Origin: Dysosmobacter sp.
Lineage (GTDB): Bacteria; Bacillota; Clostridia; Oscillospirales; Oscillospiraceae
DNA: 63,733 nucleotides
Direction: 5' to 3'
Assembly (NCBI GenBank): GCA_045659825.1
Contig: JAZRCP010000102.1
Span: forward strand, 1 to 63,733
The position numbers and the translations under genes were made by a program. Below, one piece after another: positions 1 through 15,072 of this stretch; position 1 is the first letter of the stretch, and the number at the start of each line of letters is the position of its first letter. The notes below the pieces were generated by a model. The model was not told where the DNA came from. It ran no database searches and saw only the letters and a program-made list of their open reading frames with translations.

Positions 1-1
1 G

Positions 2-1102
2 CCACCCGCGGAGGAGCCGCCTGTGCAGGAAGCGCCGGTAATGCCGGAACTGCCTGTGGAAGAGGCGGAGCCGGTACTGGAACCGGAGCCCCTGCCGGAG
101 GAACCGGTAGAGGAACTGGTGGCGGGCATTCCGGGCCTTCCCCCGCTGGACGCGCCCATCGATCCGGAAAAGCCCATGATCGCCATCACCTTTGACGACG
201 GCCCCGGCCCCTATACCGACCGCCTGCTGGACGCCTTTGCCACCTACGGCGGCAAGGGAACGTTCTTCTTAGTGGGACGCAACATCGCCGCCCATGCGGA
301 GACTGTGCAGCGTGCCGCGGCGGAGGGCCATGAGATCGCCAGCCACAGCTGGAACCATCCCCAGCTGCCCAAGCTGGCTAAGGCGGCTGTGGTGGAGCAG
401 ATGACGAAGACCCGCAATAAAATTCAGGAAGTGACCGGCACAGATGCAACCCTGATGCGCCCGCCCTACGGTGCGGTGAACAAGTCCGTGAAAGCCACTG
501 CTGCAGAACAGGGCATCGTGCTGGTCAACTGGTCGGTAGACCCCAAGGACTGGCAGTCCCGCAACGCCGACAAGGTCTGTGAGGCCATCCTCAGCCGCGT
601 GCAGGACGGAGATATCATCCTCTGCCATGACATTCACGAAAGCACGGTAGAGGCCATGGAGCGCCTGATCCCCGTCCTGCGGGTGCAGGGCTACCAGCTG
701 GTCACGGTCACGGAATTGCTGACCAGTCAGGGTGCGGAGATCAAGGCCGGTACGCTGTACCGGGAACGCCCGGAGAAGCCTGCCGAGGTGGAAGTGCCCG
801 CTGAACCGGAAACACCCGCTCAGCCGGTGGCTCCGCCCGCGCCAAAACCCGCGCCTGAACCGACTGTACCGGTAACGCCCGCACCCGAGCCCACCCCCGT
901 GGTGCCGCCGGAACCCGTCACCCCTGTGCCGGAAACGCCGGTTGTCCCCGTGGAGCCTACCGCGCCTGCGCCGGTGAACCCGGTGGTTCCCGCCCCGTCG
1001 GAGGGGCCTGTGGTGCCGGATACTCCTGCGGAACCGGAGACTCCCCCTTCAAGCGAACCGGCCATCCCCGCCGCGCCGGAAGAAACCCCTCCCGCCGCAT
1101 AA
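2..1102 (+). CDS. Polysaccharide/peptidoglycan deacetylase (CE4/NodB domain) with Pro/Glu-rich tail; 5' partial
   Basis: Motifs TFDDGP, HSWNHP, RPPYG, DPKDW, ILCHD; frame stays open to the window start. Confidence 0.9.
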   Translation, partial: PPAEEPPVQEAPVMPELPVEEAEPVLEPEPLPEEPVEELVAGIPGLPPLDAPIDPEKPMIAITFDDGPGPYTDRLLDAFATYGGKGTFFLVGRNIAAHAETVQRAAAEGHEIASHSWNHPQLPKLAKAAVVEQMTKTRNKIQEVTGTDATLMRPPYGAVNKSVKATAAEQGIVLVNWSVDPKDWQSRNADKVCEAILSRVQDGDIILCHDIHESTVEAMERLIPVLRVQGYQLVTVTELLTSQGAEIKAGTLYRERPEKPAEVEVPAEPETPAQPVAPPAPKPAPEPTVPVTPAPEPTPVVPPEPVTPVPETPVVPVEPTAPAPVNPVVPAPSEGPVVPDTPAEPETPPSSEPAIPAAPEETPPAA

Positions 1103-1109
1103 AACAAAT

Positions 1110-1143
1110 GACCGGACTATGCAAAAGCGCAGTCCGGTTTTTA
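1110..1143. terminator. Probable bidirectional intrinsic terminator
   Basis: Stem ACCGGACT..AGTCCGGT followed by T-run on +, and by TTTGTTTT on -. Confidence 0.7.
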
Positions 1144-1152
1144 CATGGAGGA

Positions 1153-1352
1153 ACAGCAAAGCCGACCGTCCTTTCAGACGGTCGCCCCCTATGATAGTGC
1201 TGGTGGTGAGGGGAGCAGCCCCGAGTGGGAGGGGGTGCTCGAGGGGGTAAAACCCACCTCGAATGGAATCGCATGCCCGCGCAGCAAAGTTTCCCGCGTC
1301 CGGCGCGGGGAACGGGCATGACAGCAAAGCCGACCGTCCTTTCAGACGGTCG
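1153..1352. repeat. 32-bp direct repeat ACAGCAAAGCCGACCGTCCTTTCAGACGGTCG (1153-1184 and 1321-1352), each copy a hairpin
   Basis: Exact repeat read from the sequence. Confidence 0.9.
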
Positions 1353-1536
1353 GCTTTGCGTATGATATAGAGAAAGGAGAGGGGAAAATCAAGTAAATTG
1401 ACTTGATGGGTTTATGATATCTGCCCGGTGGAGGAAAGTCAATGCCTTGGGGGGATGCTTCACAAAATGTTTACATCCTGCAGAAAAACCGCTGGTTTGT
1501 TCATAAAATGTTCAAAGTTTCGCAACAAAATGCGCG

Positions 1537-1591
1537 TTGACGTGACAACCGCACCGTGCTATAGTTAGCATGCTAATATTTAGTATGCTAA
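1537..1591 (+). promoter_or_regulatory. sigmaA promoter with two tandem palindromic MarR operators
   Basis: TTGACG-17-TATAGT; TTAGCATGCTAA (1565-1576) and TTAGTATGCTAA (1580-1591). Confidence 0.75.
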
Positions 1592-1612
1592 AAAATGAAA
1601 GGAGTGTCTTGG

Positions 1613-2050
1613 ATGCATGAGATGCAGCTGCTGGGTCCCGTGCTGGGCCGCAGCGCCCATCTGGCCCGGGAGCGGATGGACGCCCGCCTGCGGGACTATG
1701 ACGTGACCCCGGCGCAGATCCATGTGATGTGCTATCTCCACGGCTGCGGCGGTACCGCGCCCCAGTACGAGGTGACGGCTCACCTGCAGGTGAAGCCCTC
1801 CACCGCCGCCGGAATTCTGGACCGGATGGAGGAGCGGGGGCTGGTGGAGCGCTCCGTCAGCACCGCGGACGCCCGCAGGCGGCTGGTAACCCTGACGGAA
1901 AAGGGCGCCGCCCTGCAGGCAGATTGCCACCGGATTTTTTTAGAGGCGGAGGAATTGATGCTGCGGGGCCTGACGGCGGAGGAACAGACCGCCCTGTTCG
2001 GCCTGCTGCGGCGGGTCATCATCAATTTGGAGGAGGATCGAACGGCATGA
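1613..2050 (+). CDS. MarR-family transcriptional regulator
   Basis: wHTH signature LDRMEERGLVER...DARRRLVTLTEKG; RBS AAAGGAG before ATG 1613. Confidence 0.9.
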   Translation: MHEMQLLGPVLGRSAHLARERMDARLRDYDVTPAQIHVMCYLHGCGGTAPQYEVTAHLQVKPSTAAGILDRMEERGLVERSVSTADARRRLVTLTEKGAALQADCHRIFLEAEELMLRGLTAEEQTALFGLLRRVIINLEEDRTA

Positions 2051-3783
2051 TAAAAAAACTCTGGCCCCATGCCCGGCCCTGTGCCGGATGGATCGCTGCA
2101 GGCGTGGCCTGCAGCGCAGGCGAGGCCATTTTTGAACTGCTGATCCCGCTGGTGATGAGTGATATCGTGGATATCGGCATTAAAAACGCCGACGAGGCCT
2201 TCATCCTGCTCAACGGTCTGAAAATGGCCCTGATGGCGCTGCTGTCGCTGGCACTGGGCGTGGGCGCGGCCATCTGTTCTTCGGTGGCAGGCCAGCGCTT
2301 TGGTGCGAACCTGCGGAAGGCCCAGTACGACCACATCCAGAATTACGCCTTCTCCAACATCGAGAAGTTTTCCACCGCGTCCCTTATCACCCGCCTGACG
2401 GGTGACGCCCACTCTTTGCAGATGTCCCTGATGATGGGCATGCGGCTGCTGGTGCGCGCTCCGGTGATGCTAATTTCGGCGCTGATTTTGTCCATCGGCA
2501 TCAGCCTGCAGCTTTCCAGCGTGTTTTTAGTGTCGCTGCCGCTGCTGGCGGTGCTGGTGGCCACCATTCTGGTGCGCACCGGCCCCCTGTTCCGCTCCTT
2601 GCAGGAGAAAACGGACGCACTGAATCTGGTGGTGCAGGAAAACCTGACCGGCATCCGCGTGGTGAAATCCTTTGTGAAAGAGGATTACGAGCAGGAGAAA
2701 TTTACGAAGCGCAACCGTGATCTGAAGGCTACTTCGGAGAAGGCCTTCGGCATGGTGGTCATCAACATGCCCATCATGATGCTGATTGTCAACGCCACCC
2801 TCATCGCCGTTATCTGGTTCGGCGGGCATCTGGTCCACATCGGCGGACTGGATACCGGCGACCTGATGGCCTACTTCACCTATATCATGCAGATCATGGT
2901 GAGTCTGATGATGGTTTCCATGATGTTTATGATGATGACCCGCTCTGTGGCCTGTGCCCGCCGCATTATTGAGGTGCTGGAGGAGCAGCCCGCCATCACC
3001 AACAATGCTGCGGAAACGGAAGCGGAAGTGGCAGACGGCAGCATTGACTTTGAAAACGTATCCTTCAAGTACAGCGAAAAGAGCGCGGAGTGGATTTTAC
3101 AGGATGTGAACCTGCATATTCCCTCCGGCCAGATGGTGGGCATTTTAGGCGGCACCGGCAGCGGCAAGACCTCGCTGGTGTCCCTGATCCCCCGCCTGTA
3201 CGAGGCGCAGGAGGGCACGGTTTCCGTGGGCGGAAGACCCGTGCGGGACTACACCATGGAGCATCTGCGGGATGCCGTGAGCGTGGTGCTGCAGAAGAAC
3301 ACCCTCTTCTCCGGCTCCATTCGGGAAAACCTGCTGTGGGGCGATCCTGATGCCACGGAGGAACAGCTGATGCAGGCCTGCCGCGCGGCCTGTGCCGACG
3401 AATTTTTAGAGCGGCTGCCCGGCGGCCTCGATTACGATTTAGGCCAGGGCGGCGTGAATGTCTCCGGCGGCCAGAAGCAGCGCTTGTGTATCGCCCGCGC
3501 CATTTTGAAGCAGCCTAAGGTGCTGATCTTAGACGACTCCACCAGCGCCGTGGACACCGCCACGGACGCGAAGATTCGTGCAGCCTTTGCAAACGAACTG
3601 AGAAACACCACCAAGCTCATCATCGCCCAGCGGGTCACCTCCGTCATGGATGCCGACCTGATCGTGGTGATGGACGGCGGCCGCATTGCGGCGCAGGGCA
3701 CCCACGCGGAGCTGATGGAAACCTGTGAGATTTATCGGGATGTCTATGAATCCCAGCAGGAAGGGGTGAGCATCGATGGCTGA
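2047..3783 (+). CDS. ABC exporter, fused TMD+NBD, subunit 1 (degenerate site)
   Basis: Walker A GGTGSGKT, VSGGQKQR, ILDDSTS, IAQR; ATGA overlap with the marR stop. Confidence 0.92.
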   Translation: MIKKLWPHARPCAGWIAAGVACSAGEAIFELLIPLVMSDIVDIGIKNADEAFILLNGLKMALMALLSLALGVGAAICSSVAGQRFGANLRKAQYDHIQNYAFSNIEKFSTASLITRLTGDAHSLQMSLMMGMRLLVRAPVMLISALILSIGISLQLSSVFLVSLPLLAVLVATILVRTGPLFRSLQEKTDALNLVVQENLTGIRVVKSFVKEDYEQEKFTKRNRDLKATSEKAFGMVVINMPIMMLIVNATLIAVIWFGGHLVHIGGLDTGDLMAYFTYIMQIMVSLMMVSMMFMMMTRSVACARRIIEVLEEQPAITNNAAETEAEVADGSIDFENVSFKYSEKSAEWILQDVNLHIPSGQMVGILGGTGSGKTSLVSLIPRLYEAQEGTVSVGGRPVRDYTMEHLRDAVSVVLQKNTLFSGSIRENLLWGDPDATEEQLMQACRAACADEFLERLPGGLDYDLGQGGVNVSGGQKQRLCIARAILKQPKVLILDDSTSAVDTATDAKIRAAFANELRNTTKLIIAQRVTSVMDADLIVVMDGGRIAAQGTHAELMETCEIYRDVYESQQEGVSIDG

Positions 3784-5674
3784 AAACAAACGTCCGGTCG
3801 GGCCTCCCCATGGCGGCCCCGGCGGAGGCCCCAATAAGCACGGCTTCCGCAAGCCCAAGGACCTGCGGGGCACGCTGCGCAAGTTACTGGGGTATCTGGC
3901 GGATTATAAGGCCGCGCTGATTTTGGTAGCTTGTATGCTGGTGGTCAGTTCCTTCTGCACCGTGGCAGGCTCCTACATGCTCAAGCCCCTCATCAACGAC
4001 TATATTCTGACCGGCGACTTTCCGGGCCTTGCAAAAATGCTGGTGGTGATGGCGGTCATCTATGTGACGGGTGCCATCTGCTCCTACGGCTACGCCCGCA
4101 TCATGGTGCATGTTTCCCAGACCACTGTGGCGAAGATTCGGGAAGACCTGTTTAAAAAGATGCAGCGTCTGCCGCTTCAGCATTTTGACACCCACACCCA
4201 CGGCGAACTGATGAGCCGCTATACCAACGACATTGAAACCGTGTCCGAGGCGCTGAACAACAGCTTCGGCAGCGTCATCTCCTGCACGCTGAACTTCACA
4301 GGCACCATTGTGATGATGCTGGTGCTCTCTCCCGTCCTGACCCTCATAACCTTTGCTATGCTCGTCATCATGCTGCAGGTGGTGAAGCAGGTGGGCGGAC
4401 GCAGCCGCCGCAGCTTCGCCGCCCAGCAGCAGGCGCTGGGCGAGGTCAACGGCTATATTGAGGAGATGATCGAGGGCCAGAAGGTCATCAAGGTCTTTAA
4501 CCACGAGGAGACCGCCAAGGCGGAGTTTCAGGAGAGAAACGAGGCCTACCGTCAGGCAGGCACCCGCGCCCAGATCTTCGGCGGCATCATGATGCCCATC
4601 ATGGGCAACCTCAACTATTTGAACTATGCCTTAACCTGCTGCCTTGGTGCGGTGTTTGCCATCCGTACCGGCGCGTTTGGGTTGGGCGATCTGGCGGCCT
4701 TTTTACAGTATTCCCGTCAGGTGAGCCAGCCTATCACCCAGATTTCCCAGCAGGTGAACACCATCCTTTCCGCCGTGGCGGGCGCCGAGCGCATCTTCGA
4801 GATCATGGAGACAGAGCCGGAGACGGACGCGGGCAAGGTGCGGTTGGTGCGGGTCACAGAGGACCGTGACGGCCGGCTGACCGAGGCGGACTTTGACACC
4901 GGCTCATGGGCGTGGAAGAAGGACGGCCAACTGGTTCCCCTGCGGGGTGATGTGCGGTTCGACCATGTGGTGTTCGGCTACAACGAGGAAAAGACGGTCC
5001 TGCATGACATCTCCCTCTATGCCAAGCCCGGCCAGAAGATCGCCTTCGTCGGCTCCACCGGTGCGGGCAAGACCACCATCACCAACCTCATCAACCGCTT
5101 CTATGAAATTCAAAGCGGCACCATCACCTATGACGGCATCGACGTGCGGGACATTGCCAAGGAGTCCCTCCGCCGCTCGCTGGGCGTGGTGCTGCAGGAT
5201 ACTCATCTGTTTACCGGAACCGTGGCGGACAACATCCGCTACGGCAGGCTGAGCGCCACCGACGAGGAGGTGGAGGCAGCGGCCAGACTTGCGGGTGCCG
5301 ACAGCTTCATCCGCCACCTGCCGGAGGGCTATCAGACGGTGCTGGAGCGGGACGGCGGCAGTCTCAGTCAGGGCGAGCGGCAGCTGCTGAACATCGCCCG
5401 TGCCGCCTGTGCCAATCCGCCGGTGCTGATCTTGGATGAGGCTACAAGCTCCATCGATACCCGCACGGAAAAGCTGATCGAGCAAGGTATGGACGCCCTC
5501 ATGTCGGGCCGTACGGTATTTGTTATCGCCCACCGGCTCTCCACCGTCCGCAACGCGCAGGCCATCATGGTGCTGGAAAACGGCGAGATCATCGAACGGG
5601 GCGACCACGACGATCTGATTGCCCAGAAGGGGCGCTACTATCAGCTCTATACCGGACAGGCGGAGCTGAGTTAA
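3776..5674 (+). CDS. ABC exporter, fused TMD+NBD, subunit 2
   Basis: GSTGAGKT, LSQGERQ, ILDEATS, IAHRLST. Confidence 0.92.
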   Translation: MAENKRPVGPPHGGPGGGPNKHGFRKPKDLRGTLRKLLGYLADYKAALILVACMLVVSSFCTVAGSYMLKPLINDYILTGDFPGLAKMLVVMAVIYVTGAICSYGYARIMVHVSQTTVAKIREDLFKKMQRLPLQHFDTHTHGELMSRYTNDIETVSEALNNSFGSVISCTLNFTGTIVMMLVLSPVLTLITFAMLVIMLQVVKQVGGRSRRSFAAQQQALGEVNGYIEEMIEGQKVIKVFNHEETAKAEFQERNEAYRQAGTRAQIFGGIMMPIMGNLNYLNYALTCCLGAVFAIRTGAFGLGDLAAFLQYSRQVSQPITQISQQVNTILSAVAGAERIFEIMETEPETDAGKVRLVRVTEDRDGRLTEADFDTGSWAWKKDGQLVPLRGDVRFDHVVFGYNEEKTVLHDISLYAKPGQKIAFVGSTGAGKTTITNLINRFYEIQSGTITYDGIDVRDIAKESLRRSLGVVLQDTHLFTGTVADNIRYGRLSATDEEVEAAARLAGADSFIRHLPEGYQTVLERDGGSLSQGERQLLNIARAACANPPVLILDEATSSIDTRTEKLIEQGMDALMSGRTVFVIAHRLSTVRNAQAIMVLENGEIIERGDHDDLIAQKGRYYQLYTGQAELS

Positions 5675-5729
5675 AAACCTGTTAAAAACGTGGAAGCGGC
5701 AGCCATTTGGCTGCCGTTTCTGTTTGAAA

Positions 5730-5772
5730 AGTTGCTTATGCACCAACCAGCGGAGCACGCATATGGTATGCT
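5730..5772 (+). promoter_or_regulatory. Extended -10 promoter with upstream GTTGC-N4-GCAAC-like site
   Basis: AGTTGCTTATGCACCA 5730-5745; TGgTATGCT 5764-5772; same layout as both rubrerythrin promoters. Confidence 0.45.
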
Positions 5773-5800
5773 GAACGCAGAAAAAAGGGGAGGTGGCGTT

Positions 5801-6067
5801 ATGGCGCTGTTCGGAAAGCGGGAAGTGGTGTTTGAGGTACAGGGCAACAAGGAGCGCTGGCAGGCGGCAAGGGCCGCGCTGGAAGCAGCAGAGATCAAGA
5901 TCATGGAGGCACTGGCCCGGGAGGGCGAGATGCCGATCATCAGCTGTGGTCCCAAGATCGACCACCGCAATTACGGCCCCGAAGGCTGGATCGACAGGCG
6001 TGTTTATTACATCGCTGTCCGGCCGGAGGACACGGAGAGGGCAAGAGAAGTTCTGCGGGGCTGTTGA
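5801..6067 (+). CDS. Hypothetical protein, 88 aa
   Basis: RBS GGAGGTG before ATG 5801; terminator follows. Confidence 0.7.
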   Translation: MALFGKREVVFEVQGNKERWQAARAALEAAEIKIMEALAREGEMPIISCGPKIDHRNYGPEGWIDRRVYYIAVRPEDTERAREVLRGC

Positions 6068-6099
6068 AAAGAAACGCACCGGAATTTTCCGGTGCGTTC

Positions 6100-6321
6100 T
6101 TATTTCTTCGGATAGGGTTCTTTGACGCTGGTACGGCCCAGCAGGTAGTCCACGCTGACCTTGTAAAAGTCGGCCAGTGTGTGAAGCGCAGAAACAGGTA
6201 CATTTACCCGTTCCAACTCATAATCAGAATATGTGGTTTGGTGGACCTGCAGCAGTTCTGCGACTTGTGTTTGATTTAAGTCCTGATCTTCGCGCAGGTC
6301 ACGAAGTCGAAGTTGATACAT
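6100..6321 (-). CDS. XRE-family HTH regulator, module 1
   Basis: LRDLREDQDLNQTQVAELLQVHQTTYSDYE...LADFYKVSVDYLLGRT; RBS GGTGA. Confidence 0.9.
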   Translation of the reverse strand: MYQLRLRDLREDQDLNQTQVAELLQVHQTTYSDYELERVNVPVSALHTLADFYKVSVDYLLGRTSVKEPYPKK

Positions 6322-6346
6322 AACATCACCCGACACCATTATCTGT

Positions 6347-6392
6347 TAAGGGAATATTCCTTATTGCATTTTAAGGAAATATCCCTTAAAAT
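6347..6392 (+). promoter_or_regulatory. Twin operators overlapping the promoter of module 1
   Basis: TAAGGGAATATTCCTTA 6347-6363 and TAAGGAAATATCCCTTA 6372-6388; TTGCAT-17-TAAAAT. Confidence 0.8.
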
Positions 6393-6409
6393 AATAGTGA
6401 GGTGATGTT

Positions 6410-6598
6410 ATGCAAGACTATCAGAAGCTATACACCCTGTTGTTCAATGCCTGCACCGACGCGGTGGAGGCCATGGAGCGGATGGACTTCGGCACGGCAA
6501 AAGCCACCCTCATCTCCGCCCAGCAGCAGGCGGAGGAACGGTATATTGCCTCAGAAGTGCCCGCTGCGGCAGAGACGCTTGCATACAAAACGCGCTGA
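6410..6598 (+). CDS. Small helical hypothetical protein, 62 aa, module 1
   Basis: RBS GAGGTGA; near-identical paralogue at 6921. Confidence 0.85.
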   Translation: MQDYQKLYTLLFNACTDAVEAMERMDFGTAKATLISAQQQAEERYIASEVPAAAETLAYKTR

Positions 6599-6613
6599 CG
6601 GTTTCGTCAGCGC

Positions 6614-6832
6614 TTATTTCTTCGGATAGGGGTCTTTGATGCTGGTGCGGCCCAGCAGGTAGTCCACGCTGACCTTGTAAAAGTCGGCCAGTGTTTCTGC
6701 ATGTTCCAGCGGTAGCACCCGTTCACCGCGCTCATACTTGGAGTACAGCGACTGGTCACAGTGGAGCAGTTCTGCCAGCTGGCGCTGTTTCAAATCAGCA
6801 TCTTCTCTTAAATCACGGATTCGTAAATTCAT
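6614..6832 (-). CDS. XRE-family HTH regulator, module 2
   Basis: IRDLREDADLKQRQLAELLHCDQSLYSKYERGER...LADFYKVSVDYLLGRT. Confidence 0.9.
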   Translation of the reverse strand: MNLRIRDLREDADLKQRQLAELLHCDQSLYSKYERGERVLPLEHAETLADFYKVSVDYLLGRTSIKDPYPKK

Positions 6833-6858
6833 AAATATCACCGAAATCAGCATAGCGC

Positions 6859-6903
6859 AGGACAATACGTCCTATTGACTTTTTGGACAATGTGTCCTAA
6901 AAT
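6859..6903 (+). promoter_or_regulatory. Twin operators overlapping the promoter of module 2
   Basis: AGGACAATACGTCCT 6859-6873 and TGGACAATGTGTCCT 6884-6898; TTGACT-17-TAAAAT. Confidence 0.8.
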
Positions 6904-6920
6904 GACGCTGGGGTGATATT

Positions 6921-7097
6921 ATGCAGGACTATCAGAAGCTATACACCCTGCTGTTCAATGCCTGCACCGACGCGGTGGAGGCCATGGAGCGGATGGACTT
7001 CGGCACGGCAAAAGCCACCCTCATCTCCGCCCAGCAGCAGGCGGAAGAACAGTATATCGGGGCAGATGAGGCTGCTGTCAAAGGAGAACCCAATTAA
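6921..7097 (+). CDS. Small helical hypothetical protein, 58 aa, module 2 (not in the ORF track)
   Basis: MQDYQKLYTLLFNACTDAVEAMERMDFGTAKATLISAQQQAEEQYIGADEAAVKGEPN; RBS GGGGTGA; terminator 7103-7133. Confidence 0.85.
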   Translation: MQDYQKLYTLLFNACTDAVEAMERMDFGTAKATLISAQQQAEEQYIGADEAAVKGEPN

Positions 7098-7157
7098 ATC
7101 ACAAGTACCGGTGCACATGTGCCGGTGCTTTTTTATATCTCCGCTTGGGCAAGACGC

Positions 7158-7214
7158 AGTGGAAAGCATAAGGTTTTCCACAGAAATCAAGAGCTTTCCA
7201 CATACTTTTCCACA
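7158..7214. other. Cluster of DnaA-box-like 9-mers
   Basis: TTTTCCACA 7174 and 7206, CTTTCCACA 7194, inverted copy at 7158. Confidence 0.4.
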
Positions 7215-7392
7215 AAAGTGCCTGTGAGACGCAAGGGAAAAACGCCCCTTTCTCTTACAGTAGCAATAACAATCTCTTTATCTCTTACACTACCGGGAAG
7301 ATTTTACTAAATCTTTGATTGCATGGTTTCGTGCAAGGATTGTATAGGTTGGTGCAAAAAAGGGCGCACCTGTATCGGTGCGCCCTGTGGGG

Positions 7393-9561
7393 TCATTCAG
7401 CGGTTTCTTCCGGCTTGGAAGTGTTTTCGGTTTTGGCGGAGGGTTCGGGGGTGGCAGGTGCTTCGGTTTCTGCGGGAGCCTCGATCTTCTCGGAGATCAT
7501 ATGCACTTTCTTGGCGGGGGCCTCGATGGCTGCATCGCGAGGCTTGGTGGATGCGTAGGGATTCTCCACCAGCGCGGGGTCGCGGCCCTCGATGATAGCC
7601 ACCATCTCGCCGCCGGTGATGGTTTCCTTCTCCATCAGGTAGGCCACCACCTTGTCCATGTCCTCACGGTTGGCTTTCAGGATTTCCACTGCGTCGGCGT
7701 AGGCTTTGTCCAGCAGTTCCTTCACGGCCTTATCCATGCGGGCGGCGGTGTCCTGTGCGCAGTCGATGCCGTAGCCGCCGTCCAGATACTGGCTGCGGCG
7801 GGAGGCCAGCGCCATCATGCCGAACTCGTCGCTCATACCGAACATGGCCACCATGTTGCGGGCCACGGCGGTGGCGTCCTGAATGTCCTGCGCGGCGCCG
7901 TTGGTCATGGTGTCCAGCACCACTTCCTCGGCGGCACGGCCGCCCATGGACACGGCGATGCGGCCCATCAGCTCGTCCTTGGTGCGCAGCTCCGTCTTGT
8001 CCTCCTCGGGCATCAGCAGGGTGTAGCCGAGGCTGCCCTGCGTGTGGGGGACAATGGTGATCTTCTGTACCGGTTCGGCGTTCTTCTGCTTGTAGGCCAC
8101 CATGGCGTGCCCCACTTCGTGGTAGGCCACCAGCTTCTTTTCAAACTCGGTGAGGACGCTGCCTTTTTTCTCCGTACCGGCGATGACCAGCTCGAAGGCG
8201 GCCAGCAGGTCCTCCTGTGTCACCAGCTTGCGGCCCTTGCGCACGGCGCGGAGGGCGGCTTCATTCACGAGGTTTGCAAGGTCTGCGCCCACGCAGCCTG
8301 CGGTGGCGAGGGCGACCTTCTTCAGGTCGACATCCTCACCCAGCTTGATGTTGCGGGTGTGGACCTGCAGTGTGGCGATACGGCCCGCCAGATTGGGGCG
8401 GTCGATGGTGATGCGGCGGTCGAAACGGCCGGGCCGCAGCAGGGCCTGGTCCAGCACCTCGGGGCGGTTGGTGGCCGCCAGCAGGATGATGCCGCGGGTG
8501 GGGTCGAAGCCGTCCATCTCCGCCAGCAGCTGGTTCAGGGTCTGTTCCCGCTCGTCGTTGCCGCCGAGGCGTCCGCCGTCACGGGATTTACCGATGGTGT
8601 CGATCTCGTCGATAAAAACGATGCAGGGGGCGACTTTCGCCGCTTCCTTGAAGAGGTCGCGGACACGGCTTGCGCCCACGCCCAGGAACATCTCCACAAA
8701 GTCGGAACCGGAGATGGAGAAGAAGGGTACATTGGCCTCGCCGGCCACGGCCTTGGCGAGGAGGGTCTTACCGGTGCCCGGAGGGCCTACCAGCAGCGCG
8801 CCCTTGGGGAGCTTTGCGCCGATCTCGGTGTATTTGCCGGGGTTGTGGAGAAAGTCGATGATTTCCGTCAGGGACTCCTTGGCCTCGTCCTGACCGGCCA
8901 CGTCGCGGAAGGTGACGCCGGTCTTGCGTTCCATATAGACCTTGGCGTTGGCCTTGCCCACGCCGCCGATGCCGCCCATGCCGCCGCCGCGCTTGGCCAT
9001 TACGTTCATAATGACGGTCATCACCAGCAGGACGATGAAGAAGGGAGCCAGATTCACAAGGAACAGCAGGATGGGGCTCATGGGAGGCACATAGTCCTCG
9101 TTGATGCGCAGGCTGCCGTCGTCCCACTCGTTCAGGAAGGCGATGGTGGCGTCGTTGGATTCGATCTGCACGGTGAACAGCTGCAGGTGGGCCTGCTGTT
9201 CCTTGCCGTTTTCATCCAGATAGGTGTAGACGCTGTTGCCGTCCTCGTCGGTGGACTTGGTGTGGGCCACGCCCTCGGCATCGGTGTAAACGTAGCCGTC
9301 CTGCGGGGTGATGAGGAGGATGGCCTCCTCGGTGTCAAAGTCCACGCCGGAGACCTGATGCGACTTTACCATGTCGCGGAAGTCGCTGTATTCCACTTCC
9401 ACATTGGAGGCCTGATGGCCCGCGCTGGTCATGTAGTTGCCGGCGTAGCCGAGGATGGTGGTCAGCAGCACCGCCCAGCAGATCAGGGAGAGAAAGCCGC
9501 GCCAGTTGCTGCCGCCCTTTCCGCCCCGGATAGGGGTCTTTTTCTTGTTGTTGGGATTCAT
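7393..9561 (-). CDS. ftsH: ATP-dependent zinc metalloprotease FtsH
   Basis: Two N-terminal TM segments, [39 protein letters not shown]. Confidence 0.97.
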
Positions 9562-9755
9562 GTATTGATACTCCTTTCGGATCGCAGCCGAAATATTTCA
9601 AAGTATAAGGCAGTATATCACAGTTACGGCGCCCTCACAAGAACGAGCCGTGTCTTTTTCGTGAAGTTTCTGTAAATTCACCCTTTATTGTACCCCGCAG
9701 ATATGGTATACTACTACGGAGTATGGATAAAAATCTTCGAACGGGGAGTAACGAT

Positions 9756-10523
9756 ATGGACGAACAGAGAAAAAATGCCATGACCGCCGAAGCCGACGGC
9801 GTCATCGAGGGACGCAATGCCGTCATCGAGGCCCTGCGGGCAGGCGAGAACATCGATAAAATTTACATTCTGAAGGGCGAGACGGACAAGACGCTGGGCC
9901 ACATCGCCTCCAAGGCCCGCGCCGCCGGTATCGTGGTGGTGGACGCGGACAAGCGCAAGCTGGACAACATGAGCCGCACCCACGCCCATCAGGGCGTCAT
10001 CGCGCTGGCCGCCGTGCGGGAATACGTCAGCGTGGAGAGCATTCTCGAAGCCGCTGCCGCCAAGGGCGAAAAGCCCCTGCTGGTGATCTGCGACGAGATT
10101 TCCGACCATCACAACTTAGGCGCCATCATCCGTACCGCCGAGTGTGCCGGAGCCCATGGCGTGGTTATTCCCAAGCGCCGCAGCGCGGGCCTCACCGCCG
10201 TGGTAGCCAAGACCTCCGCAGGCGCCGTGGCTCATGTGCCCGTGGCCCGCGTCCCCAATATTCCCTCTCTGCTGAAGGATTTGAAGAAGCAGGGTGTGTG
10301 GGTGTTCGGCACGGCCGCAAACGGCACTACCAATCTCTATGACGCCGACCTCAAGGGCGCGGCAGCCATCGTCATCGGCAGCGAGGGTGAGGGCATGACC
10401 CGCCTTGCTGAGGAGAACTGCGACTTCCTTGTGAGTATTCCCATGCGGGGCAAGCTGAATTCTCTGAATGCCTCCGCCGCCGCGGCCATTTTGCTGTACG
10501 AGGCCGTGCGACAGAGAAGTTGA
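9756..10523 (+). CDS. rlmB: 23S rRNA G2251 2'-O-methyltransferase (TrmH/SPOUT)
   Basis: GRNAVIEAL, HQGVIA, DHHNLGAIIRTA, GSEGEG, SLNASAA. Confidence 0.92.
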   Translation: MDEQRKNAMTAEADGVIEGRNAVIEALRAGENIDKIYILKGETDKTLGHIASKARAAGIVVVDADKRKLDNMSRTHAHQGVIALAAVREYVSVESILEAAAAKGEKPLLVICDEISDHHNLGAIIRTAECAGAHGVVIPKRRSAGLTAVVAKTSAGAVAHVPVARVPNIPSLLKDLKKQGVWVFGTAANGTTNLYDADLKGAAAIVIGSEGEGMTRLAEENCDFLVSIPMRGKLNSLNASAAAAILLYEAVRQRS

Positions 10524-10543
10524 TCCCACAGTAAGGAGCCTTT

Positions 10544-12589
10544 ATGACAAGCAGAGACGAGACAACCAAATACGGCGCGGCTCTGCCGGAGGACGATTTC
10601 CTGCTGGAGGAAATTCTGGCCGAGTATGGCGGCGGGCGGGAGCAGAAGCTGATGCGGGATGTGGAGCATGAACTGGATCCACTGAAAAAGATGCGTCTGC
10701 AGCCAACCGCACCGATGCCCGAAACGCCTAAGCAGCCGAAAGAGAAAAAGCCGGAAAAGCCGGTTCTGCCCGAGCCTCCCAAGCCCCTTACCCTGAAGGA
10801 TGTGGTGGGAGATACAGTGGAGGCCGTCATGGAGGAAAACCGGGAGAATATCCTGCCTCCCAAGCGGAGCCTCTTTTCCAGACGGAAATTAGAGGAGACC
10901 GAGCAGTTGTACGACACAACGGATGCGCCGGAACCGGAGCCGGAGGTCGTGCCGGAACCCATCGGGCCGGAGAAGGACCTGTACGAGGCTGCGGCCGAAA
11001 ACCGCCTGCAGATGCAAAGTGCCCGCAGTACGCTGCTGCCTGCTTTTTTGACGGCGCTGGTGCCGGTGGTGCTGATGCTGGCGGAGCAGGTGGGCGGACT
11101 GGTGATCCCTTACTGGACGGGGGATATAGGGGTGCAGAGCATCGTGCTGCTGGCCTGCCTGCTCATCACGGCGCTGTTGTGCCGGCAGGTATTGGTGTAT
11201 GCGGTGCGGCAACTGCGGAAGCGGCGCTGTACCTGTGAACTGGTGATTTGTGTGTCCGCGCTGGTTGCCGCCGCGGACTGTGCGGCGTACCTTGCGGCTG
11301 CGGGGCGTACCGCTGTGGCCCCTTACGGCAGCGCGGCTGTGCTGGCGCTGGCCTTTGCCCAGACGGGCGTGTTCCGCCGGTACCGCGGTATGTACGACAC
11401 CTACCGCGCGGCGGCCATCGACGATGCGCCGCCTTATCTGGTGACGGATACCGCCCGCGGTGCCTGTAAGCAGCGGGGTTCCATCGCCGGATTTTATACC
11501 GCTGCTGGGAAGCCGGATACCGCCACCTCCTGGCAGGCGGCGCTGATGCCGGTGGTACTGGTGGGCAGCGTGGTATTTGCCGTGCTCAGTTCCTTCGGAC
11601 AGGGACGCGGAGGCGATTTCCTGCTGAACTGGTCAGTGATTCTGGCGGCAGGCGCCACCTTTTCTATGCCCCTGAGCTGGCCGCTGCCGTGGTCCAAGCT
11701 GACGGCTCATCTGCAAAAGACCGGCTGTGCCGTGGCGGGCTGGTACGGCGCGGAGGCCATCAGCCGCCATAAGAGCATGATCGTCACGGACGCGGACCTG
11801 TTCCCGCCCGGCACCATCCAGCTCAACGGCGTGAAGGTTTACAGCGAGGAGATGCGGGTGGCCGTGTCCCACGCCGCCACGGTGGCCCGTGCCGCCGGCA
11901 GCGGACTGGAGCGGCTGTTTGACGGGCTGCTTCGCAGTGAGCTGGGCCATTACGAAACGCTGGAGGACTTCAGCTTCTATGCCGAGGGCGGCTGGTCCGG
12001 CACCATCCGGGGCGAGAGCATCCTGCTGGGAACGGCCTCGTTTATGAAGAAGATGGACGTGCGCATCCCACCGGACATCAACCTGAAAACCGGCATCTTT
12101 CTGGCGGTGGACCGCCAGCTGACGGCGGTGTTTGCCGTGAAGTACCAGCCTTCGGAGCATGTGGACTTTGCCTTGCGGATGACCCAGCGCAGCCATATTA
12201 CGCCGATTCTGGCGGTGCGGGACCCCAACATCACGCCGCAGCTGCTGCAGCGCAAGTTCCACAAGGGCGTACGTGTCCAGTATCCGGACATCACCACCCG
12301 CGTGGCCCTCAGCGAGGCGGAAAACGACCGGGATCTGCCCCGGGCCTTGCTGCAGCGGGAGGGCATGCTGCCCTTTGCCGAGGTGGTGGCAGGCAGCCGT
12401 CGGCTGTGTCAGGCAGTGCGGCGGTCCGTGGCGCTGTCGCTGCTGGGCAGCATCGTGGGCACGCTGTTGGCCTTCTACCTGATGTTCCTCGGGTCCTACG
12501 CCCTGCTGACGCCCATGGCGCTGGTGGCATTCCTGCTGCTGTGGACGCTGCCGGTGCTGCTGATGGCGGACTGGACGGGACGATATTAA
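10544..12589 (+). CDS. Membrane protein, degenerate heavy-metal P-type ATPase-like
   Basis: Multi-TM; C-terminal half follows P1B-ATPase segments by eye but lacks CPC, DKTGT, TGES and GDGxND. Confidence 0.6.
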   Translation: MTSRDETTKYGAALPEDDFLLEEILAEYGGGREQKLMRDVEHELDPLKKMRLQPTAPMPETPKQPKEKKPEKPVLPEPPKPLTLKDVVGDTVEAVMEENRENILPPKRSLFSRRKLEETEQLYDTTDAPEPEPEVVPEPIGPEKDLYEAAAENRLQMQSARSTLLPAFLTALVPVVLMLAEQVGGLVIPYWTGDIGVQSIVLLACLLITALLCRQVLVYAVRQLRKRRCTCELVICVSALVAAADCAAYLAAAGRTAVAPYGSAAVLALAFAQTGVFRRYRGMYDTYRAAAIDDAPPYLVTDTARGACKQRGSIAGFYTAAGKPDTATSWQAALMPVVLVGSVVFAVLSSFGQGRGGDFLLNWSVILAAGATFSMPLSWPLPWSKLTAHLQKTGCAVAGWYGAEAISRHKSMIVTDADLFPPGTIQLNGVKVYSEEMRVAVSHAATVARAAGSGLERLFDGLLRSELGHYETLEDFSFYAEGGWSGTIRGESILLGTASFMKKMDVRIPPDINLKTGIFLAVDRQLTAVFAVKYQPSEHVDFALRMTQRSHITPILAVRDPNITPQLLQRKFHKGVRVQYPDITTRVALSEAENDRDLPRALLQREGMLPFAEVVAGSRRLCQAVRRSVALSLLGSIVGTLLAFYLMFLGSYALLTPMALVAFLLLWTLPVLLMADWTGRY

Positions 12590-12838
12590 ATCCATTACGC
12601 GGAAACCGGAGAAAGCACCTTCGGTTTCCGCGTTTTTTTGAGCGGAAGTGAAAAAAATCGCAGGCGTTTTTTGACTTCCTGCCCAAAATGTGAAAGCTGT
12701 TGAAATTTTAGTTGTATTAGTGCGGGGAACATTGTATAATTCATACATTAGGGTTTTCACGGTCCCGTGTGGCTTGGCAACAGGCTGCGGCACCGTCTGG
12801 AACGCTTTGAAAGCATCAACATAAGGAGTGTAAATCAA

Positions 12839-14914
12839 ATGAGCAATTCTGTACAGAACATCCGCAACGTCTGCTTGCTGGGACACAGCGGCAGCGGCAA
12901 GACCGCCCTGACGGAGAGCCTGCTTTATATGACCGGTGCCATCGACCGCATGGGCCGCGCTGTGGACGGCAACACCGTCTGCGACTACGATCCCGAAGAA
13001 GTCAAGCGGCAGATCTCCCTGTCCACCTCTGTGGCACCCGTTGATTTTACCGGCTGCCGCATCAACGTGCTGGACACCCCGGGCGCATTTGATTTCGCCG
13101 GCGAAGTGATGGAGGCTCTTCGCGCTTCCGACGCTGCCATCATCGTCTGCTCTGCCAAGGACGGCGTGTCCGTTGGTCTGGAGAAGGCATGGAAGTACTG
13201 CGAAGAGCGCAACATGCCCCGCTTCATCTATATTTCCAAGACCGATGAGGAAAACAGCGACTACAACGCCACCTTCGAGGCCCTGCGCGAGAAGTTCGGC
13301 AACAAGATCGCTCCTCTGGTCGTGCCCATCTGGAACGCTGACAGAAAGGTCACCGGCATCATCGACGTGCTGAACAAGCGCGCCTATGAGATGCAGAACC
13401 TCAAGCGCGTGGAGATCGAGCTGCCCTCCGACAAGCAGGACGTGGTGGAAGAGTTCCACGATGCACTGAAGGAATCCGTCGCTGAGACCAGCGAGGAGTT
13501 CATGGAGAAGTTCTTCGGCGGTGAGGATTTCACCTACGCCGAAATGATCCAGGGTCTGCGTCAGGGCGTCCGCGATCTGAGCATGTTCCCCGTGTTCTGC
13601 GGCAGCGCCGTCAACTGCATGGGCAGCCTGATGCTGATGGACTACATCGTGGACCTGCTGCCCAACCCCACCGAGGGCAACTATCACAAGGCCACCACCG
13701 CCGACGGCGCCACCCAGGAATTCGTGGTTTCTCCCGGCGGCGTGCCCACCGCATTCGTGTTCAAGACCGTTTCCGATCAGTACGGCAAGTACTCCTTCGT
13801 GAAGGTCCTCTCCGGCAGCATCACCCCCGATATGGCCATGGTCAATGCCCGTACCGGCAGCAGCGAAAAGCTGGGCCGCCTGTACTCCATGCGCGGCAAG
13901 AAGACCACCGAAGTCAAGGAACTGGGCTGCGGCGACATCGGCGTTATCGCCAAGATGGATAAGGTCAAGACCGGCGACACCCTGTGTGACGCCCGTAAGG
14001 TCGTGTCCCTGAAGAACATCCCCTTCGCAGAGCCCTGCTACTCCGTGGCCATCGTGCCCAAGACCCGCGGTCAGGAAGACAAGATCGCTCAGGGCCTGAA
14101 CCGTCTGAACGAGGAAGATCCCTCCTTCTCCGTCACCAACAACGCCGAGACCCACCAGATGGTCCTCACCGGCGCCGGCGATATTCAGGTCGACGTTCTG
14201 GTCAGCAAGCTGAAGACCCGCTTCAATGTGGAAGCCGAGCTGAAGCCCACCCGCGTTGCCTATCGTGAGAAGATCCGCAAGACCGTCCAGAAGCAGGGCC
14301 GTCATAAGAAGCAGACCGGCGGCAGCGGCCAGTTCGGTGACGTTTGGGTCCGTTTCGAGTACAACCCCGATGAGGAAGAGATGGTCTTCGCAGAAGAAGT
14401 CTTCGGCGGCTCCGTGCCCCGCAACTTCTTCCCCGCCGTCGAAAAGGGACTGCGCGAGGCCTGCGTCCATGGTCCTCTGGCCGGCTATCCCGTCGTGAAC
14501 CTGAAGGCCGTTCTGTACGATGGCTCCTACCATCCCGTCGACTCCTCCGAAATCGCTTTCAAGACCGCCGCTCAGCTGGCCTTCAAGGCCGCTCTGCCCG
14601 AGGCAAATCCCTGCCTGCTGGAGCCCGTCGGTGAGCTGAAGGTCACCGTGCCCGACAGCTACATGGGCGACGTCATCGGCGACCTGAACAAGCGTCGCGG
14701 CCGCGTCATGGGTATGGATCCCACCGGCGACGGTGAGCAGATCATCTCCGCGGAAGTTCCCATGGGCGAGATGGGCAGCTATGCCATCGATCTGCGCTCC
14801 ATGACTCAGTCCCGCGGCAGCTTCACCTTCCACTTTGTCCGCTACGAGGATTGCCCCCCCGCAGCACAGGAGAAGGCTATCGCTGAAGCCAAGGCTCTGG
14901 CTGAACAGAACTAA
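12839..14914 (+). CDS. fusA: Elongation factor G paralogue (EF-G2-like)
   Basis: GHSGSGKT, DTPG, HKKQTGGSGQFG, DGSYHPVDSSE; stand-alone, outside the str operon. Confidence 0.9.
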   Translation: MSNSVQNIRNVCLLGHSGSGKTALTESLLYMTGAIDRMGRAVDGNTVCDYDPEEVKRQISLSTSVAPVDFTGCRINVLDTPGAFDFAGEVMEALRASDAAIIVCSAKDGVSVGLEKAWKYCEERNMPRFIYISKTDEENSDYNATFEALREKFGNKIAPLVVPIWNADRKVTGIIDVLNKRAYEMQNLKRVEIELPSDKQDVVEEFHDALKESVAETSEEFMEKFFGGEDFTYAEMIQGLRQGVRDLSMFPVFCGSAVNCMGSLMLMDYIVDLLPNPTEGNYHKATTADGATQEFVVSPGGVPTAFVFKTVSDQYGKYSFVKVLSGSITPDMAMVNARTGSSEKLGRLYSMRGKKTTEVKELGCGDIGVIAKMDKVKTGDTLCDARKVVSLKNIPFAEPCYSVAIVPKTRGQEDKIAQGLNRLNEEDPSFSVTNNAETHQMVLTGAGDIQVDVLVSKLKTRFNVEAELKPTRVAYREKIRKTVQKQGRHKKQTGGSGQFGDVWVRFEYNPDEEEMVFAEEVFGGSVPRNFFPAVEKGLREACVHGPLAGYPVVNLKAVLYDGSYHPVDSSEIAFKTAAQLAFKAALPEANPCLLEPVGELKVTVPDSYMGDVIGDLNKRRGRVMGMDPTGDGEQIISAEVPMGEMGSYAIDLRSMTQSRGSFTFHFVRYEDCPPAAQEKAIAEAKALAEQN

Positions 14915-15072
14915 AAGACTTATGAAAATGTCCGGAGAGAAATCTCCGTACATTTTTTGTTAGGGTAATTTTGGCTCACGCAGGATCTGTCGGTGTCCAC
15001 TACATATAAATAAAATGACTGCCCGGTTCGCGGCAAGAATGCCTTTTCTCCGCCGGACCGGAAAAATTTTGA

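What the first reader, a model, noticed from the sequence alone, without database searches (positions are those of the whole stretch)
6099..7097. Tandem mini genetic switches with swapped repressor-operator specificity cassettes
Seen: two roughly 512-bp units, each an XRE gene (minus), twin operators, and a small gene (plus). The outer parts are almost identical DNA: XRE 3' ends 6099-6180 vs 6613-6694 differ at 3 positions, and 6401-6546 vs 6912-7057 are near-identical. The central 220 bp or so is different. Recognition helix VHQTTYSDYE goes with TAAGG-N7-CCTTA operators; CDQSLYSKYE goes with GGAC-N5-GTCC operators. Geometry is conserved: operators 25 bp apart, one just upstream of the -35 and one in the spacer of a strong TTG...-17-TAAAAT promoter, with only a -10-like element for the XRE gene. 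Known: this resembles lambdoid PRM/PR immunity switches, but no phage genes are nearby. Inference: a modular system in which a matched HTH/operator cassette is exchanged between conserved flanks, so several independent sensors control the same output protein (for example decoys for phage/ICE anti-repressors, or stochastic bistable switches).
Basis: partly seen in the sequence, partly recalled or inferred. Interest (0 to 1): 0.8.

Follow-up and report, generated by a model that had tools for sequence, protein, structure and literature searches.

The report
Swappable repressor cassettes guarding sporulation-linked miniprotein
Two side-by-side two-gene modules carry the same small unnamed protein behind two different repressor-plus-binding-site cassettes that were exchanged by recombination; they belong to a large, undescribed family in gut clostridia whose small protein likely acts as a brake on the sporulation master regulator Spo0A.

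Summary
Each ~512-bp, terminator-bounded unit has a short XRE gene, two 17-bp operators locked to a sigma-A promoter, and a 58-62-aa two-helix protein ('S'). Unit 2 is a true mosaic: its flanks are 93-95% identical to a relative's unit-1-type module at the same site, while its middle is 51-53% identical to it. Across 39 modules and 19 recognition-helix variants, operator and helix co-vary. S has no family match, yet has 3,007 clusters and is found in 139 of 151 genomes of the genus. It sits behind XRE, HTH_26 or ribbon-helix-helix repressors, behind an antisense-RNA leader, or, in a near-core copy and in phage lysis regions, behind Spo0A-box promoters. A Spo0A-S model passed only weakly (0.48 vs control 0.00). 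Best reading (about 0.35): immunity-type switches that fire a Spo0A/sporulation brake in cells lacking the matching repressor, with swaps creating new specificity groups. The anti-repressor decoy idea gained no support. The scan's earlier notes held no look-alike.

The parts
6073..6098 (.). Hairpin terminator closing unit 1 (ends the XRE1 transcript and the upstream 88-aa ORF)
6100..6321 (-). XRE1, 73 aa, HTH_3, recognition helix VHQTTYSDYE; no sensor or peptidase domain
6181..6400 (.). Specificity cassette 1 (XRE1 codons 1-47 plus intergenic region); 92-95% identical to L048 at the same ftsH site
6338..6343 (-). Putative -10 (GATAAT) of the weak leftward XRE1 promoter, 4 bp from O1; no clear -35
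   Evidence: sequence; same position in relatives; inferred
6347..6363 (.). Operator O1 of unit 1, TAAGGGAATATTCCTTA
6364..6392 (+). Rightward sigma-A-type promoter of S1: -35 TTGCAT 6364-6369, 17-bp spacer, -10 TAAAAT 6387-6392
   Evidence: read from the sequence (the scan listed only the unit 2 promoter here)
6372..6388 (.). Operator O2 of unit 1, filling the spacer and overlapping the -10
6410..6598 (+). S1, 62 aa, two-helix S-family protein; its tail runs into the next terminator
6592..6613 (.). Bidirectional hairpin terminator between the units; resembles the XRE terminator of relative L048
6614..6832 (-). XRE2, 72 aa, HTH_3, recognition helix CDQSLYSKYE
6695..6911 (.). Specificity cassette 2 (swapped in): 77-86% identical to L045/L046 and 51-53% to L048, while its flanks are 93-95% identical to L048
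6849..6854 (-). Putative -10 (TATGCT) of the leftward XRE2 promoter
   Evidence: sequence; inferred
6858..6874 (.). Operator O1 of unit 2, CAGGACAATACGTCCTA
6875..6903 (+). Rightward promoter of S2: TTGACT-17-TAAAAT
6883..6899 (.). Operator O2 of unit 2, TTGGACAATGTGTCCTA
6921..7097 (+). S2, 58 aa, predicted two-helix hairpin (helices 4-23 and 27-54, pLDDT 88); weakly predicted to bind Spo0A
7103..7130 (.). Hairpin terminator closing unit 2, facing the convergent ftsH gene

Best explanation
Each unit is a self-contained switch whose XRE and twin operators were exchanged as a cassette by recombination; the XRE likely binds only its own operators and keeps a strong promoter for the small protein S shut, and S is likely a brake on Spo0A-driven sporulation that would be made in a burst when the module enters a cell lacking that repressor type. 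Shown here: the anatomy, the helix-operator code, the mosaic, the breadth of the family, and Spo0A-box promoters on the stand-alone copies. Inferred: O2 occludes the S promoter; O1 sits in the spacer of the weak XRE promoter (autorepression), and O2 may activate it, as at lambda PRM. Inferred: resident repressors of one group silence incoming modules of that group, so a cassette swap creates a new immunity group. The tandem here would carry two groups. Weakly predicted: S binds Spo0A, acting as a Spo0E-like or DevI-like negative regulator in a lineage where Spo0E was not found. The modules look like phage/ICE accessory units stranded at chromosomal terminators.
For: Specificity code: in 39 modules, identical-helix pairs differ by 0.20 of 4 half-site bases (61 pairs) and different-helix pairs by 2.9 (680 pairs). 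The 13 different-helix pairs with the same half-site all have near-identical helices. Mantel r 0.21, p 0.007 over 19 types. Operators with at most 1 mismatch occur only at their own switch in G000 for TAGGAC and TAAGGG. Mosaic: and contigs in runs X3 and X5. Regulator interchange: 150 of 166 S units have a divergent small regulator, in 9 classes. Close S pairs within one genome have different regulator folds (G017 L013/L029; G104 L071/L105). An RNA-leader version shows loop/target co-variation (G285, 11 copies, cognate -16.6 vs non-cognate -14.1 kcal/mol, permutation p 0.0007). Sporulation link: a stand-alone S scores strongly in 70 of 82 genus genomes. 29 of 33 such promoters carry a TTCGACA-like box, against 14 of 150 regulator-paired ones and 190 of 1,297 background genes. 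The middle box has the same 26-nt spacing to the -10 as 4 of 4 spoIIGA promoters (read by eye). Phage copies next to holin-like genes have such boxes in 25 of 25. 19 of 20 S-bearing genomes outside the genus have spo0A. Spo0E was found in 0 of 41 relatives. Spo0A-S model: score 0.48, best control 0.00, runs agree in at least 91% of contacts, partner pLDDT at least 88. The mark was reached by 116 of 157 solved complexes and 2 of 215 mismatches, but at 0.60 or under by only 18 of the 157 and by both mismatches.
Against: The complex pass is weak. The tool says such passes are more often wrong than right unless likely beforehand, and a helical hairpin may be docked on a receiver domain from memory of solved complexes. 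S lacks the SQELD motif and does not match PF09388. A Spo0A-controlled promoter says when a paralog is made, not what it binds. Five near-complete sporulating genomes of the genus gave no match to the A2 profile, four of them none to A4 either and all five were searched, so S is not required for sporulation. spo0A is common in the class anyway (38 of 46). No integrase or transfer genes lie beside the window modules, and the operator patterns are absent from viral contigs, so entry into naive cells is not shown. The same XRE switch also drives unrelated cargo genes. About 15 cargo-less CDQ-type XREs mostly map to one site upstream of a comF-like gene, so they may be kept for that operon and not as immunity. 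Genomes and phages compared are related, so the counts are not independent.
Confidence: 0.35

Rival explanations
1. Addiction or growth arrest by repression. S is a general toxin or division/replication inhibitor whose target is not Spo0A (for example DnaA or FtsZ; the Spo0A-box copy would then be a SirA-like developmental inhibitor). The XRE is its only antidote, as recalled for RacR/YdaST, P1 c4/icd and P4 CI/kil.
For: S always sits behind a tight repressor of some kind. Second XREs are stacked behind the first without their own operators (L184, L185, L186, L458). Cargo-less XREs are under purifying selection (mean pS 0.70, pN 0.13). Copies are scattered, at up to about 11 sites in one genome.
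Against: S matches no toxin family and is not hydrophobic like type I toxins. One S is fused in frame to its RHH regulator (L348), which is odd for a lethal toxin. The cargo-less XREs are mostly one locus ahead of a comF-like gene.
Confidence: 0.2
2. Dose stacking or bet-hedging. Each autoregulated module supplies a small fixed or noisy dose of a Spo0A modulator. A duplicate adds nothing unless its cassette is swapped to escape cross-repression, so genomes collect orthogonal modules, much as they collect Rap-Phr systems.
For: Single genomes hold several different specificity types (G153 three, G164 two with S). The tandem here has the same S with two cassettes. Twin-operator geometry allows positive plus negative autoregulation (inferred). 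Same sporulation evidence as the best explanation.
Against: O2 overlaps the -10 and fills the spacer, which suggests tight shut-off and not graded leak. Many congeners carry only the stand-alone S.
Confidence: 0.15
3. First reader's decoy model. Each XRE is bait for a phage or ICE anti-repressor or protease, and its inactivation releases S as a defence effector.
For: Several orthogonal XREs control one output. The XREs are small HTH-only proteins of the ImmR kind.
Against: The exchanged segment tracks DNA specificity, co-varying with the operator, as immunity groups would. The operators are not found in viral contigs. RHH, HTH_26, RNA and Spo0A versions of the same module exist. Phages themselves carry S. 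PADLOC was not scanned.
Confidence: 0.12
4. Stranded relics. The modules are silent leftovers of mobile elements, and the near-identical flanks come from gene conversion between two old neighbours, without selection for a swap.
For: Unit 1 and the 88-aa ORF are absent from related strains (joints in X1 and X5). The W1/W2 flanks (96-97%) are slightly closer to each other than to L048 (92-96%), which fits conversion.
Against: S shows purifying selection (pN/pS 0.11-0.68 over 15 pairs). Operators, promoters and helices are intact across the genus. Swaps recur at other sites and across regulator folds.
Confidence: 0.12

Closest known systems
Lambdoid immunity region (cI/cro, PRM/PR, OR operators); details recalled
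   Same: Divergent promoters, 17-bp palindromic operators about 25 bp apart, an XRE/cI-type HTH, and repressor and operators exchanged together as a specificity module.
   Different: Two operators, not three. The repressor is HTH-only with no S24 self-cleavage domain. The output is a helical protein with no HTH match, not Cro. No phage genes are adjacent, and the whole unit is about 512 bp between terminators.
ICEBs1 ImmR-Pxis-devI (PMC8032392, passages read)
   Same: An element-encoded repressor keeps a promoter shut that drives a small protein; DevI (86 aa) inhibits sporulation, likely through Spo0A.
   Different: No ImmA/RapI, integrase or conjugation genes here. S was not compared with DevI by sequence. 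The S modules are single-gene outputs with many specificity groups and many regulator folds.
Spo0E-like aspartyl-phosphate phosphatases (PF09388; bioRxiv 10.1101/2023.03.28.534590, passages read)
   Same: About 50-60 aa, two alpha-helices joined by a loop, an invariant Gln and acidic residue on the second helix, and a weakly predicted Spo0A contact.
   Different: No SQELD (S has AQxxAEE). No PF09388 match. Short S forms lack the turn and differ by heptad indels. S is carried on swappable repressor modules.
Controller (C) proteins of type II restriction-modification systems; recalled
   Same: Small XRE, twin palindromic operators, specificity groups set by the recognition helix, and behaviour tuned to entry into a naive cell.
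   Different: C proteins are co-directional with, and delay, the endonuclease. Here the XRE is divergent, the geometry predicts repression of the output, and there are no R-M genes.
P1 immI c4/icd-ant and P4 CI/kil antisense immunity; recalled
   Same: The RNA-leader version of the S module has a structured leader whose loop is complementary to a site just before a terminator, with copy-specific sequences, controlling a small ORF.
   Different: No Rfam match. It occurs as scattered chromosomal copies. It applies to relatives, not to the window's units.
Rap-Phr systems (PMC5199041, search listing and start of abstract only)
   Same: Several orthogonal specificity variants of one regulatory module per genome, spread by duplication and horizontal transfer, linked to sporulation.
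   Different: Specificity here is protein-DNA or RNA-RNA, not peptide-receptor. There is no secreted signal.

Membership tests
XRE (HTH_3) transcriptional regulator | Pfam PF01381 above the gathering cut-off | tested here: met
   44.6 and 51.8 bits vs cut-off 23
Lambdoid cI/cro immunity switch | Divergent promoters overlapped by palindromic operators recognised by the adjacent HTH protein | tested here: met
   Geometry and helix-operator co-variation; binding itself not assayed
Lambdoid cI/cro immunity switch | Repressor with a C-terminal S24 self-cleavage/cooperativity domain | tested here: not met
   72-73 aa, HTH families only
Lambdoid cI/cro immunity switch | Divergent gene is a Cro-type DNA-binding protein, in a prophage context | tested here: not met
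   S has no HTH, Pfam or PHROG match; neighbours are an ABC transporter and ftsH
ImmR/ImmA ICE switch | Adjacent ImmA/IrrE metallopeptidase, integrase and conjugation genes | tested here: not met
   ORFs in window 1-16000 show none by inspection; the rest of the genome was not searched for ImmA
Spo0E-like phosphatase | Two alpha-helices, 40-100 aa | tested here: met
   Model with helices 4-23 and 27-54, pLDDT 88
Spo0E-like phosphatase | SQELD motif / PF09388 match | tested here: not met
   No PF09388 hit for 32 members at E 0.05; the motif is AQxxAEE
Spo0E-like phosphatase | Binds the Spo0A receiver domain | tested here: inconclusive
   Weak pass, 0.48 vs control 0.00; no interface was given, so the domain contacted is unknown
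Spo0E-like phosphatase | Dephosphorylates Spo0A~P | not testable with these tools
   Needs biochemistry
Type II toxin-antitoxin | Co-transcribed bicistronic operon | tested here: not met
   The genes are divergent; 150 of 166 units have a divergent regulator
Type II toxin-antitoxin | Known toxin fold; antitoxin binds the toxin | tested here: inconclusive
   No family or clear fold match; XRE-S binding was not modelled
R-M controller (C) protein | Adjacent restriction endonuclease/methyltransferase, co-directional | tested here: not met
   None among the neighbouring ORFs by inspection
Direct Spo0A regulon (stand-alone S paralogs only) | 0A boxes (core TGTCGAA; PMC3485338 passages) upstream of a sigma-A -10 | tested here: met
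   29 of 33 chromosomal and 25 of 25 phage promoters vs 190 of 1,297 background. It does not apply to the window's units; regulator-paired promoters score 14 of 150.

The most novel reading that the evidence does not exclude
S is a new, very large family of Spo0A inhibitors unrelated in sequence to Spo0E. The host uses one copy as Spo0A-induced negative feedback, and temperate phages have captured it beside their lysis genes. It also spreads as about 500-bp 'sporulation-brake' modules that fire in naive cells and are silenced by interchangeable immunity devices (XRE, HTH_26, ribbon-helix-helix, antisense RNA). Cassette swapping drives an arms race of specificity groups inside gut clostridial chromosomes.
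Probability: 0.3. Interest if true: 0.88.

Novelty: new variant of a known kind. Interest (0 to 1): 0.7.

Why it matters
How anaerobic spore formers control Spo0A is stated to be poorly defined (bioRxiv 10.1101/2023.03.28.534590, passages), and Spo0E was not found in these gut Oscillospiraceae. An unannotated 3,000-cluster family with Spo0A-box promoters, phage copies and a weak Spo0A-binding prediction gives a direct candidate to test. Separately, and well supported, the modules give a natural recognition code of about a dozen orthogonal 72-aa repressor/operator pairs on one fixed promoter geometry. That is useful for studying how specificity evolves and as compact orthogonal switches for Firmicutes. 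One output placed behind protein repressors of unrelated folds and behind an antisense RNA is an unusual case of convergent immunity logic outside intact phages.

Tried and rejected
Family searches for S: no Pfam, PHROG or NCBIfam match of weight. PDB sequence search gave only helical designs and peptides. Foldseek PDB and viral gave 0 hits at E 0.001. VIA best Z was 7.4, generic for helical hairpins. The ESM Atlas gave only 'hypothetical protein' clusters and no named hit. Plasmids: no match. Annotated phages: one unannotated record. Rfam: nothing credible in the window or in 20 RNA-leader loci. Loss of S does not track loss of sporulation: 5 of 5 genomes without an A2 match have spoIVA. The CDQ twin-operator pattern is nearly confined to close kin: 2 of 401 class genomes, and 0 viral contigs for either pattern. 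Sequencing runs: no RNA holder listed, so no evidence on expression. The tandem junction was not bridged in 8 runs. Considered and dropped: an invertible element (the 12-bp inverted repeat 6319-6330/6401-6412 is the two ribosome-binding sites plus start codons, and no inversion joint was listed); a global regulon for the XREs; a pure assembly artefact of the mosaic (independent contigs span the breakpoints). 'Orphan immunity' was weakened. The S tree was only a quick tree on 57 columns with 17 of 154 branches well supported. In one search the script picked the wrong target in several leaders (for example L360 and L363), and the cognate target was best for only 4 of 11 G285 loops and 6 of 21 overall. 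One class genome (G260) was not scored. Literature searches listed no paper describing this family or module. The library lacks most subscription papers, and no supplements were read, so a mention in a supplementary table cannot be excluded.
Full report
OBSERVATION. The window lies in a 1.55-Mb, 76%-complete assembly. The closest named relatives of the small ORF are in Oscillibacter and other Oscillospiraceae records. Between an ABC transporter operon, an 88-aa ORF and a convergent ftsH are two direct-repeat units. Each has a minus-strand XRE (6100-6321, 6614-6832; HTH_3), an 88-bp intergenic region, and a plus-strand ORF of 62 or 58 aa ('S'; 6410-6598, 6921-7097). Hairpin terminators bound the units. 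The flanks differ at 3 of 82 and 5 of 146 positions; the middle is 50-53% identical. The operators are 17-bp palindromes 25 bp apart. The -35 lies between them, and O2 ends in the first two bases of the -10. Neither unit's score of 22/24 was reached in 2,000 shuffles.

SPECIFICITY CODE. I collected short XREs of this subfamily from all fetched loci. Of 98 distinct regulator regions, 39 kept the same geometry (score at least 20/24, spacer starting TT or CT). The other 59 were dropped, including cargo-less and second-in-tandem XREs. Among the 39, each helix has its own half-site: VHQTT with TAAGG(G/A) (6), CDQSL with (T/C)AGGAC (9), INRRT with TGGCAG (5), xSQRT with TAGAAC (4), CSQQ with TAC(T/G/A)C (4), xxQNT with TATCTG or AATCTC (3), VSQ(T/A)T with TATGCG (2), CTQV with TAAAAC (3, one read out of register), and single cases for CSQRI, MSQTG and VRQTT. 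Identical-helix pairs differ at 0.20 of 4 variable bases and different-helix pairs at 2.9. With one representative per type, the Mantel r is 0.21 (p 0.007). These genomes are kin, so the pair counts overstate independence. In the own assembly, sites within one mismatch of TAGGAC or TAAGGG palindromes occur only at these switches; the TAAGGA variant adds one other site.

THE SWAP IS REAL. Relative L048 has a VHQ-type unit at the same ftsH site. Unit 2 matches it at 95% (XRE 3' end) and 93% (S), and shares its terminator and S tail, but only at 51-53% in the middle. That middle matches the CDQ-type units L045/L046 from another site at 76-86%. Unit 1 matches L048 at 92-96% up to the S tail. A third type (IKQNT) occupies the ftsH site in G164. 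At another site, near-identical S genes follow either a VSQRT cassette (L183) or an INRRT cassette with the VSQRT XRE left behind it (L184, L185). In public runs, X3 has one contig across 6102-6439 and another across 6606-6975. X5 has both cassettes branching at the same boundaries, and X1 and X5 join the ABC gene directly to unit 2. So the chimeras exist independently and unit 1 is polymorphic. The tandem junction itself was not bridged. Cassette replacement and flank conversion cannot be fully separated; both need recombination at the conserved XRE C-terminus and the S ribosome-binding site.

THE OUTPUT PROTEIN. S is coding (pN/pS 0.11-0.68) and folds as a two-helix hairpin (pLDDT 88). It matches no Pfam, PHROG, NCBIfam, PDB or named Atlas family. 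It is abundant: 3,007 clusters at 50% identity, 139 of 151 genus genomes with 425 matches, and 20 of 300 class genomes. I examined 166 distinct units, drawn from the best-scoring hits and so biased to the long form. 150 have a small divergent regulator: 41 of an RHH-like class (the label 'YlcI-like' is recalled; a member had no Pfam hit), 29 Arc RHH, 21 short XRE, 22 longer XRE, 34 HTH_26-like and 3 CopG RHH (Pfam names for one member per class). The regulator class changes at least 40 times on a weakly resolved S tree (minimum 9, shuffled 102), including close S pairs with different folds in one genome. The short-XRE switch in turn drives other unnamed cargo genes. In other clostridial families, short S genes follow a sigma-A promoter and a long structured leader whose loop is complementary to a site just before a terminator. 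Cognate pairing is stronger than non-cognate in G285 (p 0.0007) but is the best match for only 4 of 11; there is no Rfam match. The likeness to P1 c4 and P4 CI is recalled.

LINK TO SPORULATION. A stand-alone S scores strongly in 70 of 82 genus genomes (my count of hits at E 6e-16 or better; the profile included six such copies). Its promoter reads (C/T)TCGACA..TTC(A/G)GACA..TGTGTAT(C/G)AT. TTCGACA is the reverse complement of the 0A box core TGTCGAA (PMC3485338, passages). At least one box within one mismatch occurs in 29 of 33 of these promoters, 14 of 150 regulator-paired ones and 190 of 1,297 background genes. The middle box lies 26 nt from the -10, as does a TTGCGAC box in 4 of 4 spoIIGA promoters (by eye). 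Phage contigs carry S on the opposite strand beside holin-like genes (recognised by inspection) with two or three boxes (25 of 25 have one, 24 have two; only about three independent types). Other phage contigs carry regulator-paired S (L044, L309). An RHH-S fusion lies next to an effector-only Spo0A gene (L348), a form reported from gut phages (PMC10294663, passages). The own genome has spo0A and spoIIGA. PF09388 Spo0E was found in 0 of 41 relatives while ringing in the B. subtilis control. 19 of 20 S-bearing genomes outside the genus have spo0A against 38 of 46 in a class sample, which is weak evidence. I then modelled Spo0A with S: score 0.48 (0.44-0.53), best control 0.00, at least 91% contact agreement, partner pLDDT at least 88. 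That mark was reached by 116 of 157 solved complexes and 2 of 215 mismatches, but at 0.60 or under by only 18 of the 157 and by both mismatches. It is a weak pass, possibly from memory of hairpin-receiver complexes, and no interface was given. S has two helices like Spo0E but no SQELD motif (bioRxiv 10.1101/2023.03.28.534590, passages), so it is not filed as Spo0E.

MECHANISM. Shown: anatomy, code, mosaic, family breadth and promoter motifs. Inferred from geometry: O2 blocks the strong S promoter, O1 gives autorepression, and O2 may activate the -35-less XRE promoter (lambda analogy, recalled). The XRE has no sensor or cleavage domain, so the simplest trigger is absence of repressor, that is, arrival in a naive cell. 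This also explains why specificity diversifies and why unrelated trans-acting repressors, protein or RNA, are interchangeable. A burst of a Spo0A inhibitor would keep a newly entered host vegetative, as DevI does for ICEBs1 (PMC8032392, passages). Against: no mobility genes are adjacent, the operators were not found in viral contigs, S was not found in some sporulating congeners, and cargo-less XREs mostly belong to one comF-linked site. I give about 0.9 to orthogonal cassette exchange, about 0.5 to naive-cell firing and about 0.4 to Spo0A as the target, and about 0.35 to the whole. Rivals: a non-Spo0A toxin under repression (0.2), dose stacking or bet-hedging (0.15), anti-repressor decoys (0.12) and relics (0.12).

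NOVELTY. The switch type is known (lambdoid immunity, ImmR, C proteins), but defining features of each family fail. The S family and its interchangeable-regulator modules were not found in nine literature searches or in the scan's earlier notes. Verdict: a new variant of a known kind, interest 0.7, higher if the Spo0A link holds.

Noticed in passing
L201, L216, L357-L367 (G285); L206, L208, L200, L217, L207, L199, L211: Undescribed structured RNA leader (long stem; loop AAAAAYGYnnRCTCY complementary to GGAGYnnGCGTTTTT just before a terminator) in front of short S genes, at about 11 scattered sites in one genome. No Rfam match. It looks like a c4/CI-type antisense attenuator and deserves its own study.
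   Followed up: partly
G000:C107:12598-12795 (L174); L368-L396: Near-core stand-alone S gene of the genus with a conserved tandem Spo0A-box promoter; a candidate unrecognised early sporulation gene.
   Followed up: partly
L310-L337 (viral contigs), about 3980-4120: Temperate-phage S gene on the opposite strand between a tail/XkdX-like gene and a holin-like gene, with two or three 0A-like boxes just upstream of the holin start. Spo0A binding might also damp lysis-gene expression.
   Followed up: partly
G000:C147:9655-10151, C18:284-747, C95:1769-2317, C70:1174-1704: Other mini-switches in the own genome: XRE plus twin operators driving a WRLWVDT-type protein, a Cys-rich protein and another unknown ORF, and an Arc-like gene with a divergent S.
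   Followed up: partly
L436-L439, L443, L445-L449, L452-L457: CDQ-type XRE that kept both operators but lost the outward -35 and its cargo, mostly at one site directly upstream of a comF-like gene (recognised by inspection); it may autoregulate a competence gene.
   Followed up: partly
L348:5330-5647; L349:5022-5402: In-frame RHH-S fusion (intact in G133, altered at the 5' end in G072) beside an effector-domain-only Spo0A gene, two XREs, small unknown ORFs and a two-component system.
   Followed up: no
window 5801-6067: 88-aa ORF with no Pfam or PHROG match above threshold; absent, together with unit 1, from related strains in runs X1 and X5.
   Followed up: partly
L184:4275-4734, L185, L186, L353, L356, L458: Stacked XRE genes of different specificity types behind one S gene, several without operators of their own.
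   Followed up: partly
window about 42000-51000: Low-GC stretch (37-49% in most 1-kb bins vs about 59% elsewhere), probably an acquired island; not examined.
   Followed up: no
alignment A6: Short S variants differ by exact seven-residue indels between the FNA and AQ motifs, suggesting a coiled-coil dimer that the long hairpin form mimics within one chain.
   Followed up: no
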